From Eledone cirrhosa (Eukaryota), in the NCBI GenBank assembly GCA_964016885.1, contig OZ024743.1, forward strand, positions 153,078,001 to 153,142,000: 64,000 bases of DNA. Reading direction: 5' to 3'. Below the pieces are notes generated by a model, which did no database searches, was not told where the DNA came from, and saw only the letters and a list, made by a program, of their open reading frames with translations. Shown one piece after another: positions 9,230 through 61,926 of the stretch; position 1 is the first letter of the stretch, and each line of letters begins with the position of its first letter. The translations under genes were made by a program, and so were the position numbers.

Positions 9230-11340
9230 TTAGCAGTAGTATAGTAAGTAAGGCAATCGAGGATATGAAGTCAGGCAGAGCAGCTGGACCTTCAAGGATA
9301 GTTGTTGAGATGCTGAAAGCATCAGGTATGATGGGCCACACTGCATTGTAAACCAAGTTATACAAAATGGTGTCATACCAAATGACTGGTCTGGCAGCAT
9401 CATTATAAACTGCTACAAGGACAAAGTTGATGCCCTAGATAGGGAAAACTACAGAGGCATTAATTTGGTTGACCAGGTTATGAAGATCACTAAAAGTGTC
9501 ATAGCTCAGCTGATTAGGAAATTAGTTAACCTAGATGAGATACAGTTTGGGTTTGTACTGGGTAAAAGTACCACAGATGCCCTCTTCCTTGTAAGACAAC
9601 TGCAGGAGAAGTACCTAGCTAATAGTAAACACCTCTACTTGGCTTTTGTAGACATGGAGAAAGCTTTTGACAGAGACCCCCATTCTGGTGGGTTCTTAGA
9701 AAACTATTGTAGACAAGTGGCTTGTGAGGGCTGTACAACCCATGTACAGAAGAACAGTCAGCAAGGTCAGAATTAACAATGACTGCAGCAAAGAATTTAG
9801 TGTGCAGGTTGGTGTCCACCAAGGCTCAGTTCTTATCATCGTTCTACAGGCAATAACAGAAGAGTTTAAGACTGGCTGCCCATGTAAATTTCTGTATGCT
9901 GATGACCTAACCCTTATAGTCGAATCTATACCTGAATTAGAGATGAAATTCCAAACCTGAAAGCACGGCCTGGAATCTAAAGCTCTTAAAGTCAACTTAG
10001 CAAAGACTAAAGTTCTATTAGAAAGGTTTACAGGGCCCAGATCTCCTCAGGGAAATGGACTTGCTCAGTGTGCTGAAAAGGAGTAGGTAGGAATTCCATA
10101 CTATTTCCCAAATGCAAGCTATAGGTGCACAAGAGATGTAGTGGGATCCCAGGCAGACTAACAAAGAATGTAGGTTTTACATGCTGTCGGTGCACAAGTA
10201 GCAAGAGCTCTCAAGATACTATCACCTCCAAATTCCTAGAGCATTTTATAGAAGTGGTAGATAGCTTATGTCACCTTGGTAACCAAATCAGCAGTGGGGG
10301 AGAGTATTTTGAAAGTACAGAAGCCAGAGTGAGATCGATTGGAGAAAGTTCAGGGATCTACTGCCGCTGCTAACTACAAAAGGTTTTTCCCTCAATATGA
10401 AAGGCAGACTGTATGATGCATGTATAAGAACAACTATGTTACACAGAAGTTAGGTCTGGGCTCTGTATGCAGAGAACCTGCGGAGATTAGAAAGAAATGA
10501 AGCCTCCATGCTTCGATGGATGTGCAATAGCAATATATGTGAACAGCAAAGCATAAATGAACTACGTGAGAAATTAGGCATAAGAGGGATCGGATGTTGT
10601 GTGCAGAAGAAGAGATTGCGTTGGTATGGGCACATGATGTGTATGAAGGATGACAGCTGTATAAAAAGGTGCAGAGCATTCAAAGTTGATGGTACCCATG
10701 GAGTAGGCAGGCCTAGGAAGACTTGGGATGAGGTAATAAGAGCTGACTTTACTCAATTACACCTCAATAAGGCAATGACACAGGACTGTGACCTCTGGAG
10801 CTATGAAGTATTACAGAAGACCCGCCCTCTATTATTCTCAGGCTTAGGCATATACCTAATAGTCAACATCATTTCCCTGCCATAAACCTCCCTTATACCT
10901 ATGTCCCCAATTTCCCATAGCATCTTCACCACCCCTCCCAAGTTCCTAACCTTCTATATAAATTGATCTATCTGGAGCCACGATAAAAGAGCCCAGCCCA
11001 CTACAGTGGTCATGTAGGTGTCATGACAAAAGTGAGCATCCAGTCTGCACTGTGAATTTGTCATGCAGGTGTCATGACAAAAAGTATCCAATCCATACTG
11101 TAAAATTGTCATGTAGGTGTCATGACAAAAAACATTCAGTGCTGTAAAGTGGTCATGTAAGTGACATGGCAAAAAGCACACAGTAAATGTGGTTGGTGTT
11201 ATGAAGGGCATCCAGTCGTAGAAACCAAGCCAAATCAGTTCTGTGTGAGTGAATCACAGTCCCCCAACCTGATACCTCACAAAGGGTCAGCCCATCCTAC
11301 CCATGCTAGCGTGGAAGATCGACGGTAAAAGATGATGATG
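9230..11340 (+). mobile_element. RTE-clade LINE, 5'-truncated, degenerate
   Basis: RT motifs QFGF..GKSTTDA, AFVDMEKAFD, GVHQGS, LYADDL, LRWYGH, GRPRKTW; (GAT)n tail at about 11331; several stops and frameshifts. Confidence 0.92.
11007..11180 (+). repeat. About 48-bp tandem repeat (x4) in RTE 3' UTR
   Basis: Unit gtcatgtaggtgtcatgacaaaa...ctgtaaa repeated four times; about two units in the homologous UTR at 22780-22875. Confidence 0.75.
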
Positions 11341-16047: not shown

Positions 16048-16657
16048 ATATATGTAGTAAGAAACACAGTAAATCGTGCGTCTAATATTACGAGGGCTGA
16101 AGAACCACATTTGTTTGAAATATTTAACCATGAAGCAGACAGAATGATAAAATAAAATGAAATTATATTATACAAACCGCCTCAATAACTATTATATCTC
16201 TCGGACAGATTAGGATTAATCTGTTTTGCCCTGAGTGTGTTTGTAACAGATAATCCATGGGCATCATCAGCGAGAGAATCTGATTAAATGCGACAAACAC
16301 CTAATACTAACGTTCACACAGAAAAATGAATTCATCACCTCGTGTGCCGTAAGTCGAAAGTGGTGCGAGTGTATTGGTTAGAAATAACAGTCCAACACAC
16401 GCGACTTAATAAGCTCACTTCTTGAGGGAGCCGAAATATAAATGAAAGTTAGAGTTAATAACTCATACTGAAACCCTGTAATTTAATAAGCTCAAAGTAT
16501 AAATACTGAGCATTATAATAATATATGTAATAAGAAACACAGTAAATTATGCGTCTAATATTACGAGGGTTGAAGAAACACATTTGTTTGAAATATTTAA
16601 CCATGAAGCAGACAGAATGATAAAATAAAATAAAATTATATTATACGAACTGCCTCA
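16048..16657 (-). mobile_element. About 1.3 tandem copies of a 473-bp non-coding unit containing a hammerhead (retrozyme or non-autonomous Penelope-like)
   Basis: 137-bp direct repeats at 16048-16184 and 16521-16657 (offset 473); hammerhead at 16197-16277. Confidence 0.7.
16197..16277 (-). ncRNA. Type I hammerhead ribozyme with a G12-to-A core mutation
   Basis: Minus strand: tctctcg CTGATGA t gccc..gggc AAAA cagatta atcc taatctg TC cgagaga; perfect stems I and III, triplet GUC; GAAA changed to AAAA at 16227 (CpG-type transition). Confidence 0.8.
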
Positions 16658-32150: not shown

Positions 32151-32340
32151 ACCATATAACCTAGAGTACATTTGGAGCCTAAAAACATCTCTCAAAAACC
32201 ATATACATATTCTAGTTCATACATACCCATATATTTATACATGCCCATGTGCTCACACATATATACTTACATATACATATACATACAAAACATACATGTA
32301 TATATATATATATATGTGTGTATGTATATGTATATATATA

Positions 32341-33146
32341 TACAATATGTTGAAAATGTAACACACTCGAGAGAGAGTGTCCCATCAATAAAACAGGGAA
32401 AACCACCAGTGTATGGAATCTATAACCTATGGAAGGCAGGGTAGACACACAATAATTAAAAATATAAATTAAAATGTATATACGCACCTCTATAACTATA
32501 TAATACATGCGTACAAATCCAAAGAGATCTGTTTCGCCAGGAAGTTGTTGACTGAAATGGAATAGCCCATCGTTCATCAGTGCATGCAAGACTATACATT
32601 TCAGACAATTCTAAGAGAAGCTAAAGCGTCCGTCCAGCTACATGCGGCAGAGAGATGTCACAGCGTGTTTAGGGCAGTGAACCAGTGGTGTCTGAGGGAG
32701 AAGCTGCTAGAAAAGGCAGCCCAAAAACCAATCGAAGTGTGCTCAACCAAACAGAGAGAGCGAAATATCACGATAAATTAACGGAGCCATAGACTCTCAT
32801 TATTTCCTGTCAATAATGTGCTCAAAGGAAAAGGAATGTTGAGCTCTTTAAAATACAATATGTTGAAAAGGTAACACACCAAAGAGACAGTGTGCCATCA
32901 ATAAAACAGGGAAAACCACCAGTGTATGGAATCTATACTCTTTATATTTTTAATGATTGTGTCTACCCTGCCTTCCATAGAGTATAGATTCCATACACTG
33001 GTGGTTTTCCCTGTTTTATTGATGGCACACTCTCTCTCTAGTGTGTTACTTTTCAACATATTGTATTTTAAAGAGTTCAGGATTCCTTTTCCTTTGAGCA
33101 TATTATTGACAGGGAATAACGAGAGTCTATGGCTCCGTTAATTTAA
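32341..33146 (-). mobile_element. 513-bp non-coding hammerhead unit (about 1.2 copies) plus an inverted junction-spanning copy
   Basis: Direct repeats from 32341 and 32854 (offset 513); 32941-33146 is the reverse complement of 32775-32940 continued by about 32428-32468; TA tracts on both sides. Confidence 0.75.
32506..32586 (-). ncRNA. Type I hammerhead motif (core intact, stem bases decayed)
   Basis: Minus strand: catgca CTGATGA ac...gc GAAA cagatct cttt ggatttg TA cgcatg; triplet GUA; A.C mismatches at the bases of stems I and II. Confidence 0.7.
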
Positions 33147-33150
33147 TGTG

Positions 33151-33240
<90 letters not shown>

Positions 33241-33249
33241 ATATATATA

Positions 33250-33665
33250 GTAGTTCTAAACAATTTAATTTAATTTTATAATAATATAATTTTAAAATTT
33301 GGTTTTGTAGATCTAGTAATTTCTTTGTTAACACCAGTGGAGAGATATTTAAAGATTCCTGGTTAACTCTACGGGGGAACTTCATTAGTAGGTGGCAGTT
33401 GTCAAACTGATCTCATGTTGTGTTGTGATATTTGACTCTCTATATAAGAGATTTGGGTGTGCCGGGTGAGGGGGTGGGGGTAATGTGTGTATACATCTAT
33501 ATATATGTGTATATGTATATATACCTACTAATGAAATTCCCCAGTAGAGTTAACCAGGAATCTTTAAATATCTCTCCACTGATGTTAACAAAGAAATTAC
33601 TAGATCTACAAAACCAAATTTTAAAATTATATTATTATAAAATTAAATTAAATTGTTTAGAACTA
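33250..33665. repeat. About 143-bp inverted repeat with about 128-bp spacer
   Basis: 33250-33393 is the reverse complement of 33522-33665 with few mismatches. Confidence 0.9.
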
Positions 33666-33789
33666 CAAGTGAAGTCATTCTTTTCCCTTTTCTAAATATA
33701 CATATATCTATGTATGTAGGTATGAATATATATATAAATATATATATATATATACACATATAATATGTATAATAAGAGAGGGCCCATGA

Positions 33790-43000: not shown

Positions 43001-44260
43001 TCAAATAATTTCATATTTTAAAAAAACATTCACACTTACACATATAATAGTTTTAGGTAAAAATATATCATTTCCCCAGCTGAACTAAATATCCCAGTGA
43101 ATGCGATTTCCCTCAAGAATAAGAAGAAAGTCATGTTTCTGTTGGTCATATTCCTTATATATCATCATTATCATCATCATCCATTTGTCTATGTATCCAC
43201 ACACACACATGGTTCGGTAATCAACCTGGTGATCTTTGTGACACTGGAATCCTGGAAATCATTTATGCCAACGAACATATTTTAAACAAAAACTCTGGCG
43301 CAATTTTGGTTGTAAACATAAATTGTATAAAACATTTTTATATTACAGCCCAACATTATATCCTAATCGACACTATGCAGATGATATATGTCATGATTTG
43401 ATAGCTATAAACAATCAAAATTTATGCTACGGGATGTCTCACCTATGTTCCTCTTTCTACACTCTCCATCCGTACATATTATGCTATAAATTGCACTCCT
43501 AGTATTGCAGTTATTTGTAGGCATAATTTGCAGACTATACAATTCTTATTAGTGAAGGGGGTTTTCTCAAAAGGATATATTCAACTAATTAAGGCTTATA
43601 TATATATACAACAGGAGGAAACATTATAGTACCACTGATGATGTTGCAGATGTGCAACAAAGGAAATTTGATAGACTATATATATATATATATATCTGTA
43701 TTTTTAACCGTTGGTCAATCAATGATAAACGTTGATTGCCAAATAAATTAACTATGGAGAAATAAAAGATACAGTGGTGAAAACGAACCAAACAGTGAGT
43801 GTCTTCTGTTATTATTTCTGGCAATATTATTACAACAATATGACCCTACCCAAGTATAACAATATATATATATATATATATATGAAAGTGGATGAATATT
43901 TCAACAGGCACTAAGTACTTGTAGAAATATGCAAGGTGTTTATAATATTTGTTGTTCGATGGTACTAATTTGAGATATATATATATATGTATGTGTGTGT
44001 GTGTGTGTGTTTGTGTGTATACATATATATATATATGCATATATAGGTGTGTATATATGTGTATATGCATATGCAGTGCCCGAACATGGCCTCAGCCGGA
44101 TGGCTAGAACAGGTAAAAGAGTAAAATAGTATATATGTATATGTGAGTGTATAATTTTCATGCACTATATTTTTGTTAATATATGCATCCACACTGGTCA
44201 GCACATATATATGAACCTAAATCTGAAAACATTACTATTAATGTTTTCATTATTATTATT

Positions 44261-56484: not shown

Positions 56485-58495
56485 ATGGATAATTCACCAC
56501 TGCACCAAGCAGCTGAAAGACTTTCTCACAAATTAACACCTCACACCAACACCACCATTGTAAATGATTATACGTCTTCCAACACAAACAATTTAAGCAC
56601 GAGCAATATTTTAAATTTGTCTCAGGCAGACATTCATTTCCCGCCATTACCAATTACTGCAGGTGTTAAAGCCGCCACCACCACCACCACCGCGACAACA
56701 GAAACAAAAGGAAAAAATAAATCAACTCGTGATGTCGAAATATTTTCAACAAAAATGGACTCTCCCAAACCGACTTTCACTGACGTCACCACCACCACAA
56801 CTAAAACTAAAATTAATAATAACAAAAATAACGATAGCAACAACAACAACAATGACATTAAAAAAACCACCCTGAGTTTTGCCAGAGTAGCAAAACAGTG
56901 CGAAGCATTTACGGTAACTCAGGAGGATTTAGAAAATGCCAAACAAATGGTAAAGAAAGATGGGTACAGGGTCAGTCTCACCCCCCCACCCCACCTAATA
57001 AAATGGAGCATCGGCGCCTATGCACCGTGTCGTATCGAACAATAAATGTAAAATCGCGCCGAGTGGAACGGGCATCCGAGTCCCAAATCCAAAAAGCTTT
57101 GGGACATGTGTGGGCAAGAAAAACCCACATCAGACCTGGGCAGAAGTATGGAACCGTGGACGTGTTCTTTGAAACACCAGAGGAGGCTAGAGAACACTCC
57201 ATGGCCCCATTAAGAAGTGACAACTTCACACTCGTCCCAAGCTATTGTGGCCAGAGACTCGTAAAGATCAGGGTGACCCACGTTCCACCGGCCATCGAAA
57301 TTCCCTGGCTAATAGGGGCCGTCCTCGCCGGCATCGAAGCCAACACAAAGATAATAGCAATAGCAAAAGAAATGCAGGAGATCTGGTCCGGATCTGGGAT
57401 GGAGCTCCTGATCCAAGCGGACCAAAAAAGCATTGAGGAGTTCCTAGAGGTAATAGACCTCACTGACGGCAGCCACCTCACCGTAATTGTCGAGGGCAGA
57501 AGGCCTAGGTGTGTAGTTTGTGGTGAAGGAACCCACCTAAGGGCTTTCTGCCCTCAGGCTAAAAGGTTGAGGCCACCTCTCCTACCCACCCCAGTGACAC
57601 AACCATCAACACCACCAGTAGCAGAGATGGCAGCAACAACTGTAGCAGCAACAACAGAAGCAACTATAACAGCAACAACCCCAGCAACAGTAGCAAAACC
57701 AACACCACCACCACCAGCAAAACCAACACCACCACCACCAGCAAAACCAACACCACCACCACCAGCAAAACCAACACCACCACCACCCAACGCTTCAGAA
57801 CTAGCACCAGCGCCTACACCATCCACCACGCCACAACCAAAACCAACGCCTGTGGAGGATTTTCCACTCCCCGGCCTATCACAACTGGAGACAGATTGTG
57901 ACGACGAGGAGTGGGAAATGGTATCAGGAAAAAAAAAAGAAACCAAAAAAGAAAAAATTCTCTTCCTTCCCCCTCCAAAAACAAAATACAGAGGGAAACA
58001 AATAAATTAACAAACAAAAAAGTTAGGACAGATATGCCACCATCCACACCAGCATCACCAACCCCATCAACCCAAACACCAACACCATCACCATCATTAA
58101 CCCCAACACCACCATCACCTACACCACAAAAGTCACCAAAATGCGAAAGAGAAACAAACCCACAACAAACGCAAACAAAACAAAACAACCAAAACGATAC
58201 ACACTACACAGCATTAAATTTGAACAACAACCAATTATTACACTACATCCAACACAACACCAGCATCACAGAAAAAGATGACACAACAACCCACAAATTC
58301 ACACCACCTCCACACATACAAATCACTCGCATCACACAGAAAACGTACATGACACTAAAACAAAAATTCCCCAAAGACATCGGAGACTTCCGACAAGCAC
58401 TCTCCAGGAGGATTTATAAGGACATCCTTCCCGAGGAGGCCACAAGCAGTGAAAAGGATGGAAAAACCGTCCTTCCCCTACGAAAAGTAAGGTAA
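56485..58495 (+). pseudogene. Tx1 ORF1 (gag-like, CCHC zinc knuckle, Pro/Thr-rich), two frameshifts
   Basis: Joined from ORFs 56485-57045, 56898-58010 and 57911-58495; RCVVCGEGTHLRAFCP; shifts fall near a C-run (about 56985) and an A-run (about 57930). Confidence 0.8.
57693..57788 (+). repeat. 24-bp coding tandem repeat x4 (AKPTPPPP)
   Basis: gcaaaaccaacaccaccaccacca repeated. Confidence 0.9.
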
Positions 58496-58529
58496 GTGGT
58501 CTTTCCCATCTTTTCCACTCCATTTCAAC

Positions 58530-61500
58530 ATGACCTCACTCAGAAGAGGCAGCATAAATGCGCGTGGCTTGGGGTCGTCATGGAAGAAGGGCCACCTGCT
58601 CAACGACCTCAGGTCACTAAACATAGATGTAGTGGCCATCAGCGAGACCAGAATCTCCGAAGCACGGGCCTTCGCACCAATCTTCGGCGGCTACGATGTG
58701 TACGCATCTCCCAGCCGTCCGGGATCGGGGGGAGGAGTTGCTATGCTTTTTCGGAGAGGTTTGGATCTTGCCATACGGGCCACCTTCCTGGACCCAGAAG
58801 GTAAGTTGGTGGTGCTGGACGTGACCAGCGGAGAAGGGCAAGCTTTCAGGTTAGTGGCCGTCTATGCTTCCGGCGTCTGGAGACCTTTCTTGGAACGTCC
58901 CGCTCTTTAGTGTTAGTGGGCGACTGGAACGGGATCTTGGATGCACGCTGGGATTGTGTGGGATTAGTGGATAGGGAAGGAGGGTGCAAGAGTCTCACCA
59001 ACCTGCTCAGGCGTTTTGAACTGTCTGACAGGTACCGAATGGATTTCCCGAATGTACCAATGTGGACTTGCACAAATCGCATAGGGTCATCCAGATCATA
59101 TCTAGATAGAGTATTTTGTAGGGAAATGGATAGGTCTAGCATAGGTTGTCCACAATTCAAGATAGTCAGCTACACGGACCAAAAATTCGTGATCTGTGTG
59201 CTTGACTTAGATAGGCTTCATAGACGTGGACCCGGCTACTGGAAGCTAAACGCGTCCTTACCAGCGCGCAAGGCCTACAGAGACCGGATTAGCGAACTAG
59301 TTAAGCGGGCGTTGACGGGGGCCATCGTCAACAACAAGTGGTGGTTTGCTCTGAAAAGAGCAATTAGAATAGAGTCCATTAGGTTTAGTAAGGCTTTAGC
59401 AATAGAGAAAAATAGAGCAGAGGGAGAATAAGTTAGAAAATTAGACGAGGCGCTTAGTAAAGGCATCGCTACCGACGTACGTGCGGCGAAATTGGCCCTT
59501 GACCAATTCTTCAATGCAAAGCACGAAGGCTGCGTTGTCAGAGCTAGGGTGCGTGCTCTCAGACACGAGGGGACGAAAGCCGTTCAATGGGCCCGAGTGG
59601 AGGAGGCGCGTCGTGGCAACAAAGCCACGATCCGGTCTTTGCTGGACCACGACGGGCGCATGCTACTCGATCCCGGGCAAATGTGTGAAGCTTTTCAGCG
59701 ACACTTCGCTCAACTGTTCGGGGGCAGTGGCGGGCCGGATCGAGGGATGGACTTTAGTGTCTACCTCGACGGACTGCCGCGGCTTTCGGCCACTGAGGCG
59801 GAGTGTTGCGAAAAGCCGATAACAACCGCTGAAGTACGGGAGGCAATGACTGGCTGCACAAGGGGTAAATCGCCTGGTTTAGATGGTCTGCCCTATGAAC
59901 TTTACGTACAAATGCCAGACTTGTTCGGAGGCCTCTTGGTGGACGTCTACTGCAACTGGCAACAGAACGGGAGAATTCCCAGCTCTGTGAGCCGAGGATC
60001 GGTGGCGCTGCTGAGAAAGGATCCGAACAAGGGGGATAACATAGATAATTTTAGGCCCATAACTCTGCTAAACACAGAGTTCAAGATTTTGGCCAAGGTG
60101 CTAGCAAAGAGGTTGGCGCTTGTCGTTGGTGGTCTGGTGGGAGAGGCACAGACATGCGCCATTCCCGACAGATCCATCCACGACAACCTCCACCTCATGC
60201 GATACATCGTAGAGAGGGTAGCTAGGGAACCTGGCACGGGTGGGTCATTGATCAATTTAGATCAGTCGAAAGCTTTCGATAGGGTCGACCATCGTTACCT
60301 AGCGGCAGTCCTGAGGGCGGCTGGCTTTGGGCCCGTCTTCAGAGGTTGGATCTCTACCATGCACAGCGACATCTGCTCTGTAGTGAGAGTGAACGGTCAC
60401 CTTTCGGAAACGTTCAACATAATGCGCTCGGTCCGCCAAGGATGTCCCCTCTCGTCCCTATTGTAGGTATTGACTCTCGAGCCATTACTGCACAAACTGG
60501 AGACGCTGAGGGGGGTCCCGCGCGAACTAGGATGCGGAAGATCCGTGTCAGCATATGCGGACGATGTCACCCTAGTGGTGTCGAACGCCAAACACATCGA
60601 GGCGATCGGCACTACACTAAGAGAATACGAAGCGGTGACAGGAGCAATGATCAACCAGGAAAAGTCAGTGGGCCTGCAGCTCGGCACCTGGAGAGGCAGG
60701 TCCATGCCGTCCAACAGCGTCGTCGGGCGCTGGACGGACGGACCGGTTAAATTGCTAGGGGTCTGGTTCGGTCCAGACCTCCAGACGGACAAAAACAGGG
60801 ACGAGGTGACGAGCAGGGTGGCTTCTCTCACCCAGAAATGGGCCGAGAGGAAGCTATCCCTGAAAGGTCGAGCGGAGGTGGCTAACGCGTACATCGCGTC
60901 CGTCATCTACTACCGCCTGACCGTCGTACCTTGTCCTAAGCCCCGCCTGACTGCGCTGGAGCGTTTGCTCTTTCGCTTCTTGTGGAAGGGACGCGCTCCG
61001 ATGGTCAGGCGGTCCATCTGCTGTCAACACCCGCTACGTGGAGGGCTGGGCATGCCGTGGCTGATGATGCGCAGACACGCGCTCAGGCTACGACATCTCC
61101 ACCTCTTCCTCGACGGTGATCAGGTGTGGTCGCCGTTTGCTAGACACGTTTTTCCCCAGCTCGTCTCCTTGACGGAGCTGCAGTCCTGGGTCAAGCGAAG
61201 ACTGGGAGGGAGCGCTTGGAGACTGGAATGTCTTCAGGCGCTCACAGCCCTCGACCAATCGGGCAATGTGATCGGTGGAAACTCCACCTTGGCGTTCTAT
61301 AGGGGATTAGTGGAGGGTAAGAGCGACGACGTACTTGGAGAAACTCTAGGCGTCGACGAAAATCAACTAGCCAATCTCTTCGGAAGGACTTTCGGGCCGG
61401 GGCCTATGGACAACTTCCAGAAATCCCTGGCCTGGCAGTGCTACCGGGGTGCTTTGCCAGTTCAGGATAAACTCTACAGGCATGGAGGTGCCGTCAGCCG

Positions 61501-61926
61501 GGCATGTCCGAGATGCGCGCAGGGCGACGAAACCGTCCTGCATGCACTCGACTCGTCCAGTGTCCGAGCATTGCTGACTTGTGGGTTTATGTTGAACACC
61601 TGCTGTCACGTGTAGGACGGATCCAGCTATCAGCTGAGTCCATCGTGAGGATTGCCCTGCCCTCTTCCTTTAGCCGGGAAGGGCAAGCATTTTATATCTG
61701 TCTGGTGGCCATGGCGAAAGAGATATTATGGTGGACACGTTTGAAGGGGCTGAAGACGAGCACTTACCTCTTTGGTGATGCCCTGATTAACTTTTTCAAA
61801 TTTCATTTGAAAAGGAAAATCAGGGTAGAGAAGGAAGTGCTCTCTTCCCAGCATTTTGTTGAAAGATGCGTGAGAGAAGCAAGTATGGCCCGAATGAATG
61901 GGCCTTCTCTGAGTATGTGTCTGTAA
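58530..61926 (+). pseudogene. Tx1 ORF2 (endonuclease, reverse transcriptase, zinc knuckle), disrupted
   Basis: SINARGL, ISET, VGDWN, SYLDR, WKLN, SPGLDG, RPITLLN, LDQSKAFDRVDH, QGCPLS, AYADD, GGLG, CPRC..ETVLHAL..C; frameshifts near 58870 and 61550, stops at 59429 and 60464. Confidence 0.92.

What the first reader, a model, noticed from the sequence alone, without database searches (positions are those of the whole stretch)
32341..33146. 513-nt hammerhead unit with an inverted copy that reads across the unit junction
Seen: about 1.2 direct copies, then an inverted 205-bp segment that continues past where the direct copy stops (32940) into sequence matching 32428-32468. The template therefore was tandem or circular. 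The architecture resembles 16048-16657 but the sequence is unrelated. Tandem plus inverted ends are typical of Penelope-type integration, linking a retrozyme-like RNA to Penelope machinery and (TA)n targets.
Basis: partly seen in the sequence, partly recalled or inferred. Interest (0 to 1): 0.72.

Follow-up and report, generated by a model that had tools for sequence, protein, structure and literature searches.

The report
Penelope-pasted hammerhead retrozyme, two-armed copy
This is one decayed copy of an abundant 539-base non-coding repeat with a hammerhead-ribozyme motif, and its mirror-image arms end at two fixed sites 85 bases apart, so it is a new family of a known genomic hitchhiker (retrozymes) that was likely pasted in by a Penelope-type jumping-gene enzyme.

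Summary
A 601-nt arm (32340-32940) is joined head-to-head to a 214-nt inverted arm (32941-33154) that crosses the unit junction, between (TA)n tracts. It belongs to a dispersed family with a 539-nt unit (513 here through deletions) and a type I hammerhead motif; this copy's ribozyme is damaged. Copies end at two fixed sites, A and B, about 85 nt apart. In 48 of 50 classifiable head-to-head insertions one outer end is A and the other B, the published Penelope 'tail' signature. Both outer ends of this copy are such sites. The element at 16048-16657 is a distant homologue (z 11.7) with the same 85-nt offset, not unrelated. A tandem or circular template is supported, but the two cannot be told apart: there were no RNA data and no editing marks. 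No coding partner was found among 45 GIY-YIG loci. Seven insertions fuse a retrozyme arm head-to-head to other Penelope-type elements; one event versus sequential insertion is unresolved. Retrozymes as non-autonomous Penelope derivatives are already published, and this scan noted the same two-armed pattern in other families of this genome and others.

The parts
32340..32940 (-). Long arm, about 1.17 units (family positions 89-718); hammerhead-sense RNA reads on the minus strand. Its outer end at 32340 is fixed site B (no tail).
32941..33154 (+). Short inverted arm (family positions 219 to 1); RNA sense on the plus strand. Its outer end at 33154 is fixed site A (with tail).
33066..33154 (+). 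The roughly 85-88-nt tail between sites B and A, present at this outer end only
32765..32852 (-). Internal copy of the tail; 32765 is site A of the next unit, with a seamless unit junction at 32764/32765
32940..32941 (.). Head-to-head joint of the two 5'-truncated arms (1-nt overlap)
   Evidence: L001
32505..32587 (-). Type I hammerhead motif: CUGAUGA from 32580, GAAA from 32535, predicted cut 32512/32511. Stem III is intact; in this copy the first stem I pair and one stem II pair are mismatched.
32299..32339 (.). Left (TA)n-rich target tract
33155..33249 (.). Right (TA)n target tract
16048..16657 (-). Single-arm copy of a homologous family 2 (473-nt unit, same 85-nt A/B offset). Hammerhead core from 16270, cut 16204/16203; GAAA is changed to AAAA in this copy.
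33250..33700 (.). Separate neighbouring head-to-head Penelope-type insertion in the same TA tract, with a tail of about 34 nt on its right arm only

Best explanation
The element is one copy of a dispersed, non-coding 539-nt hammerhead repeat whose copies end at two fixed sites 85 nt apart, and it was likely inserted by a Penelope-like (PLE) reverse transcriptase-endonuclease acting in trans. Inferred mechanism: the enzyme cuts both strands of a (TA)n tract, and each cut end primes cDNA synthesis inside the RNA, one at site A and one at site B. Both cDNAs run towards the RNA 5' end, through the uncleaved or re-ligated ribozyme and over the unit junction, and stop at variable points. They are then joined head-to-head by short homologies. 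If only one arm survives, a single-arm copy results. The template holds more than one unit in series, as a circle or a linear multimer (about even odds). Shown: the family, the two fixed ends, the one-A-one-B rule, TA targets, seamless junction, common source of the two arms, conserved ribozyme core. Inferred: the enzyme, two-strand priming, transcription, self-cleavage, circularity.
For: Family: 104 matches from 40 scored of 2738 candidates; 228 exact matches to one 29-mer against 0 for the reversed control; median 95% identity to consensus. Ends: 55 of 165 segments start at positions 1-10 and 69 at 82-95. Of 84 insertions, 56 are head-to-head (48 A/B, 1 A/A, 1 B/B, 6 with one unclassifiable end; p about 1e-12) and 28 are single-arm; none is tail-to-tail. 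184 of 202 A/B outer ends abut TA repeats, against 25 of 49 free 5' ends. Family 2 shows the same two ends. Coding RT+GIY-YIG elements are abundant in this genome (10,596 candidates, 150 scored; Pfam) and show the same A/B build. Arms share subfamily alleles (168/253, against 20% between loci), and strongly marked haplotypes sit in both arms. Papers: two internal RT start sites define the tail, both strands are cut and extended, AT-rich targets, and ribozyme cleavage is not needed (PMC11167929, parts 1-2 of 4 read). An inverted 5'-truncated copy plus a 30-40-bp tail on one side is the usual PLE build (PMC8557442 passages; PMC3846280 passages).
Against: No coding partner was found: neither unit matches the ends of PLEs in 45 GIY-YIG loci, and none of the coding families measured has an 85-nt tail (about 36-68 nt). 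The tail is twice the published 30-40 bp. The family 1 consensus does not fold into the hammerhead as its lowest-energy form (-23.7 against -18.6 kcal/mol when constrained), and pair 10.1-11.1 is G-C in only 10 of 86 copies. There is no A-to-G editing signature and only 4 of 163 rare-variant observations are shared between successive rounds, so nothing shows one molecule read twice. Only 1 of 84 insertions spans two whole ribozymes. By linked markers, 10 of 25 informative two-arm loci scored discordant and 6 mixed, mostly at weak markers. Arm sharing may be inflated by later gene conversion.
Confidence: 0.82

Rival explanations
1. Same enzyme, but the template is strictly linear: read-through or ribozyme-trimmed transcripts of 1.5-unit or tandem source loci. 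No circle is involved.
For: Stops rise past one unit, and 4 of 5 arms reaching positions 770-809 stop there, next to the second cleavage site at 801/802. There is also an excess of stops at 250-289 around the first ribozyme (22 of 84 at risk, p 1.6e-4 against a 0.115 baseline). Rounds share few rare variants. Unprocessed RNA is the main substrate in vitro (PMC11167929).
Against: Stops near the ribozyme are spread over 40 nt, and many lie beyond the cut site, which fits stalling rather than a cut end. Linear copying can only shorten copies, yet arms reach position 977 (L174) and, in family 2, 1108 (L041). Related retrozymes are found as circles in mussel (PMC7229834, section 14 read).
Confidence: 0.4
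3. The inverted arm is made by fold-back self-priming on the first cDNA or on an antisense template (model discussed in PMC3846280), not by a second primed start.
For: Some joints are near-palindromic (L111 289|287, L127 269|267, L181 175|175). Arms share rare variants more often than rounds do (50/290 against 4/163).
Against: Most joints are asymmetric by tens to hundreds of nt. Fold-back alone does not explain why the two outer ends are A and B in 48 of 50. In this copy the short arm carries a tail that lies outside the long arm's outer end.
Confidence: 0.15
4. The copies are merely truncated 3' ends (pseudo-LTRs) of an unfound coding PLE rather than an independent non-autonomous element.
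For: Only 45 loci from the 150 listed GIY-YIG hits (10,596 candidates) were examined, so the partner search is shallow.
Against: Arms run past a full unit back into the same unit instead of into an ORF (28 of 84 cross the junction). The PLE-protein matches next to free 5' ends face away from the retrozyme arm and belong to different families. The full-length stem III differs from the minimal PLE hammerheads (PMC4209133 passages).
Confidence: 0.07

Closest known systems
Metazoan non-LTR retrozymes (Cervera and de la Pena 2020, PMC7229834, passages and section 14 read; Li, Clavereau and Pollet 2026, bioRxiv 10.64898/2026.07.22.740005, parts 1-3 of 5 read, supplements not seen)
   Same: Non-coding unit with a type I hammerhead, partial tandem copies, many dispersed loci, coexisting PLEs, proposed PLE-driven mobility.
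   Different: The unit of 539 nt is above the 170-400 nt of the 2020 paper but within the 51-972 nt of the 2026 preprint. Most copies hold one ribozyme and would not meet the preprint's two-ribozyme 'active' criterion. The main subfamily has A opposite C at 10.1-11.1. Expression, cleavage and circles are untested. The parts read do not describe head-to-head arms or tails for retrozymes.
EN+ Penelope-like element insertions with inverted pseudo-LTR and tail (PMC8557442, PMC3846280 passages; PMC11167929 parts 1-2 of 4)
   Same: Head-to-head 5'-truncated arms, tail on one outer end only, two fixed 3' ends downstream of the hammerhead, (TA)n targets, microhomology joints.
   Different: No ORF; the tail is about 85 nt rather than 30-40 bp; no pLTR homology to a coding element was found.
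L1 twin priming (recalled, not from a call)
   Same: Two primed cDNAs give an inverted insertion.
   Different: Here both outer ends are fixed element sites and the arms overlap in sequence; there is no poly(A) tail.

Membership tests
Non-LTR retrozyme | Short non-coding unit repeated head-to-tail in the genome | tested here: met
   539-nt period; 28 of 84 insertions cross the junction, but arrays are mostly under 1.5 units. No ORF of 150 aa or more overlaps it.
Non-LTR retrozyme | Type I hammerhead core with stems I and III | tested here: met
   Core intact in 72 of 86 copies; 7-bp stem I and 8-bp stem III. Both stems differ in sequence but still pair in family 2. None of 68 polymorphic sites falls in 36 core, stem III or proximal stem I positions (p about 0.008, post hoc). 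Rfam at gathering threshold found nothing in the window.
Non-LTR retrozyme | Stem II closed by G10.1-C11.1 | tested here: inconclusive
   A in 66, G in 10, C in 10 of 86 family 1 copies; an alternative short stem II after a 21-nt insertion is possible. Canonical in the family 2 consensus.
Non-LTR retrozyme | Two complete ribozymes in consecutive units (the preprint's 'active' criterion) | tested here: not met
   This copy has one. 1 of 84 family 1 insertions and L041 in family 2 have two.
Non-LTR retrozyme | Self-cleavage and abundant circular RNA | not testable with these tools
   No RNA holder listed; needs bench work.
PLE-type insertion | Fixed 3' ends with 5' truncation and head-to-head inversion | tested here: met
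   56 of 84 head-to-head, none tail-to-tail.
PLE-type insertion | Tail on one outer end only | tested here: met
   48 of 50 classifiable insertions; length about 85 nt, longer than published.
PLE-type insertion | AT-rich or (TA)n target | tested here: met
   184 of 202 A/B outer ends.
PLE-type insertion | Terminal sequence shared with a coding PLE | tested here: inconclusive
   No match in 45 GIY-YIG loci; only a small part of 10,596 candidates was sampled.
Autonomous PLE | RT plus GIY-YIG ORF | tested here: not met
   No such ORF in the element or the window list.

The most novel reading that the evidence does not exclude
Each side of one PLE-cut TA tract is primed by its own RT protomer, one set to site A and one to site B, running on a circular RNA. 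The second side can be taken by a particle that carries a different RNA, so retrozyme arms fused head-to-head to other PLE families (7 loci; A/B complementary in 4 of 5 that could be scored) are single-event chimeras. The 85-nt tail, kept between two families only about 56% identical, would be the ruler of one still unidentified PLE enzyme.
Probability: 0.2. Interest if true: 0.6.

Novelty: new member of a known kind. Interest (0 to 1): 0.3.

Why it matters
It adds genomic support for a proposed but mechanistically unproven route, in which animal retrozymes are integrated by Penelope enzymes. It gives a short template with two mapped start sites for an in vitro test. Tail length varies by family within this one genome, from about 34 to about 100 nt, beyond the 30-40 bp usually quoted, which may help match hitchhikers to enzymes. 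The locus itself is an old, damaged copy, and the class is known.

Tried and rejected
Rfam scan of the window: 0 hits. RNA runs: no RNA holder listed; this is no evidence either way. Three runs of one sample and one study, held as contigs, covered the family but did not bridge this copy's joint. Partner search: a recalled Pfam accession was not in the library. GIY-YIG loci gave only short AT-rich matches; a weak in-register alignment of family 2's tail with one young PLE family scored 43 against a shuffle maximum of 49-53, and the one score above its shuffles (L095, 47 against 39) was AT-rich and unconvincing. Editing-mark test for one circle read twice: negative in family 1 (A>G 52, T>C 121 rare changes). 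A third retrozyme family (L096/L233) is not detectably homologous (score 131 against 109 +/- 14). Chimeras as a pointer to one partner: rejected, since they involve different families and two other free ends join LINE-like window ORFs, as target deletion would give. A-arm versus B-arm length differs by about the tail length only. Target-site duplications cannot be read in TA tracts. Literature searches listed no paper on tails or head-to-head arms in retrozymes, or on mixed-arm PLE insertions. These searches cover open-licence papers only, and supplements of PMC8557442 and the preprint were not seen and may bear on tail lengths.

Full report
Observation. The described anatomy is real. A long arm at 32340-32940 contains an 85-nt direct repeat at spacing 513. 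An inverted arm at 32941-33154 aligns in one piece to a doubled unit across the junction and continues into sequence matching 32428-32468 (201/217 nt, E 1e-89). Both sides are (TA)n. The arms are 91-94% alike, which argues against a read fold-back artefact, although no outside contig bridged this joint.

Family. The host is a 3.0-Gb genome; I take it to be an animal, probably a cephalopod, which is a guess and not a tested result. The unit gave 104 matches from 40 scored of 2738 candidates. The consensus of the 30 best loci has a 539-nt period, and the window copy lacks 26 nt. For a less biased sample I used a 29-nt pattern: 228 exact matches, 0 for the control, 100 listed, all on contigs C1-C4. 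I took 89 loci covering most of those 100. I dropped 4 that repeated the same insertion and 1 segmental duplicate, leaving 84. Median identity to consensus is 95%, so the family is not young.

Two fixed ends. In hammerhead sense, copies have a variable 5' end and one of two 3' ends: site A (position 1; window 32765 and 33154) or site B (positions 85-89; window 32340). Of 165 segments in 85 loci, 55 start at 1-10 and 69 at 82-95. With looser classes (A up to 35 or just past the junction; B 78-117), 56 of 84 insertions are head-to-head: 48 A/B, 1 A/A, 1 B/B and 6 with one unclassifiable end. The other 28 are single arms, and none is tail-to-tail. In 132 insertions of both families, 184 of 202 A/B outer ends abut TA repeats, against 25 of 49 free 5' ends. 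Contigs from one outside sample repeat the TA loose ends at 32765. The window copy is therefore a standard B-plus-A insertion, and 32341 is not a unit start.

What is known. This is the published PLE build: an inverted 5'-truncated copy and a 30-40-bp tail at one end (PMC8557442; PMC3846280; passages). For an anole PLE, the protein cuts and extends both strands at AT-rich DNA, starts inside the RNA at two sites that delimit the tail, and does not need ribozyme cleavage (PMC11167929). Animal retrozymes as non-autonomous PLE derivatives are proposed in PMC7229834 and in bioRxiv 10.64898/2026.07.22.740005. Earlier notes of this scan report the same two-armed pattern in other families; these are leads, not support.

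Second element. 16048-16657 belongs to a family with a 473-nt unit (2071 candidates, 40 scored) that has the same two ends about 85 nt apart. Registered at site A, the two consensuses align at 309 of 551 columns, z 11.7. The tail alone (z 4.4) and the stretch up to the ribozyme (z 9.2) exceed all 300 shuffles.

Ribozyme. The core is intact in 72 of 86 full copies. Stem I (7 bp) and stem III (8 bp) pair in the consensus and pair with different sequence in family 2. No polymorphic site falls in 36 core and proximal stem positions (post hoc). Against activity: pair 10.1-11.1, usually G-C (PMC4209133), is A opposite C in 66 of 86 copies, and the family 1 consensus prefers another fold by 5 kcal/mol, whereas family 2 folds as a hammerhead. 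The window copy also has mismatches in stems I and II and a fold z of only -1.4, so it is probably inactive.

Template. 28 of 84 insertions cross the unit junction and 51 have an arm that reads past the first ribozyme. Across 112 family 1 loci, 53 of 56 crossings have no indel. The junction was therefore in the template. Stops are in excess around the first ribozyme (22 of 84 at risk), rise after one unit, and 4 of 5 arms stop near the second cut site. That fits either a circle or ribozyme-trimmed multimers. The editing test that could show one molecule read twice was negative. Opposite arms share subfamily alleles in 168 of 253 cases against 20% between loci. Strong haplotypes occur in both arms, but 10 of 25 informative loci scored discordant at mostly weak markers, and conversion between arms is possible.

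Partner. PLEs are abundant. Four of five long ORFs tested matched both RVT_1 and GIY-YIG, and one matched RVT_1 only at that cut-off. Tails read by eye from a few loci each are about 36, 42, 45, 54 and 68 nt in coding families, about 34 nt in the neighbour at 33250-33700, and about 100 nt in a third retrozyme family. None of 45 GIY-YIG loci shares ends with families 1 or 2. The partner is unidentified, and 85 nt is long but not unique here.

Mixed arms. Of 24 free 5' ends without TA, 7 are fused head-to-head to a 5'-truncated arm of another PLE-type element (L022, L035, L096, L121, L154, L163, L183). The outer ends are A/B-complementary in 4 (L035, L096, L154, L163), not in 1 (L183), and undetermined in 2. 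That is not significant. Two other free ends join LINE-like sequence, so insertion beside an older element with target deletion explains these equally well.

Verdict. A new family of a known kind, with clean Penelope-type ends. PLE-driven insertion is likely (0.82); circularity, cleavage and partner are open. Interest 0.3.

Noticed in passing
window 33250-33700: Head-to-head insertion of another abundant Penelope-type repeat (1599 candidates) in the same TA tract, with a tail of about 34 nt on one arm.
   Followed up: partly
L154/L205, L163, L035, L096, L121, L022, L183: Retrozyme arms fused 5'-to-5', without TA, to arms of different PLE-type families; L154 has a 12-nt fold-back at the joint.
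   Followed up: partly
L027:2035-2225; L136:950-1141: Retrozyme 3' ends fused in sense directly to 5'-truncated ends of coding PLE families.
   Followed up: partly
L079:3110-5629 and L193-L204: Very young coding PLE family: 40 of 40 scored copies are about 100% identical over the 311-nt end, with a tail of about 54 nt. A natural candidate for enzyme assays.
   Followed up: partly
L096:1731-2395; L233; L077:6500-7450; window 43880-43977: Third hammerhead retrozyme family (unit about 470-490 nt, 2350 candidates) with ends about 100 nt apart; not detectably homologous to families 1 and 2.
   Followed up: partly
L183 right flank; L046 left flank: Another tandem repeat family with two ends about 47 nt apart, in which a CGAA motif precedes CUGAUGA; possibly the permuted hammerhead of earlier notes.
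   Followed up: no
window 43610-43865: 3' end of a coding PLE family (same as the L035 arm), tail-to-tail with a family 3 fragment; the same pairing occurs in L077.
   Followed up: no
L039:2100-2290; L042:2088-2291: A roughly 190-nt SINE-like repeat has inserted at site B inside two family 2 copies.
   Followed up: no
window 56862-61615 (+): Long LINE-like element by reading of the translations (ORF1-like, endonuclease and RT frames broken by stops); several other RT fragments lie at 9309, 18753, 21240, 24403 and 35231.
   Followed up: no
L101, L122, L139, L114: Inverted arms nearly identical to each other (0-3 differences in 110-289 nt) although each carries subfamily or private changes, suggesting conversion between arms.
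   Followed up: partly
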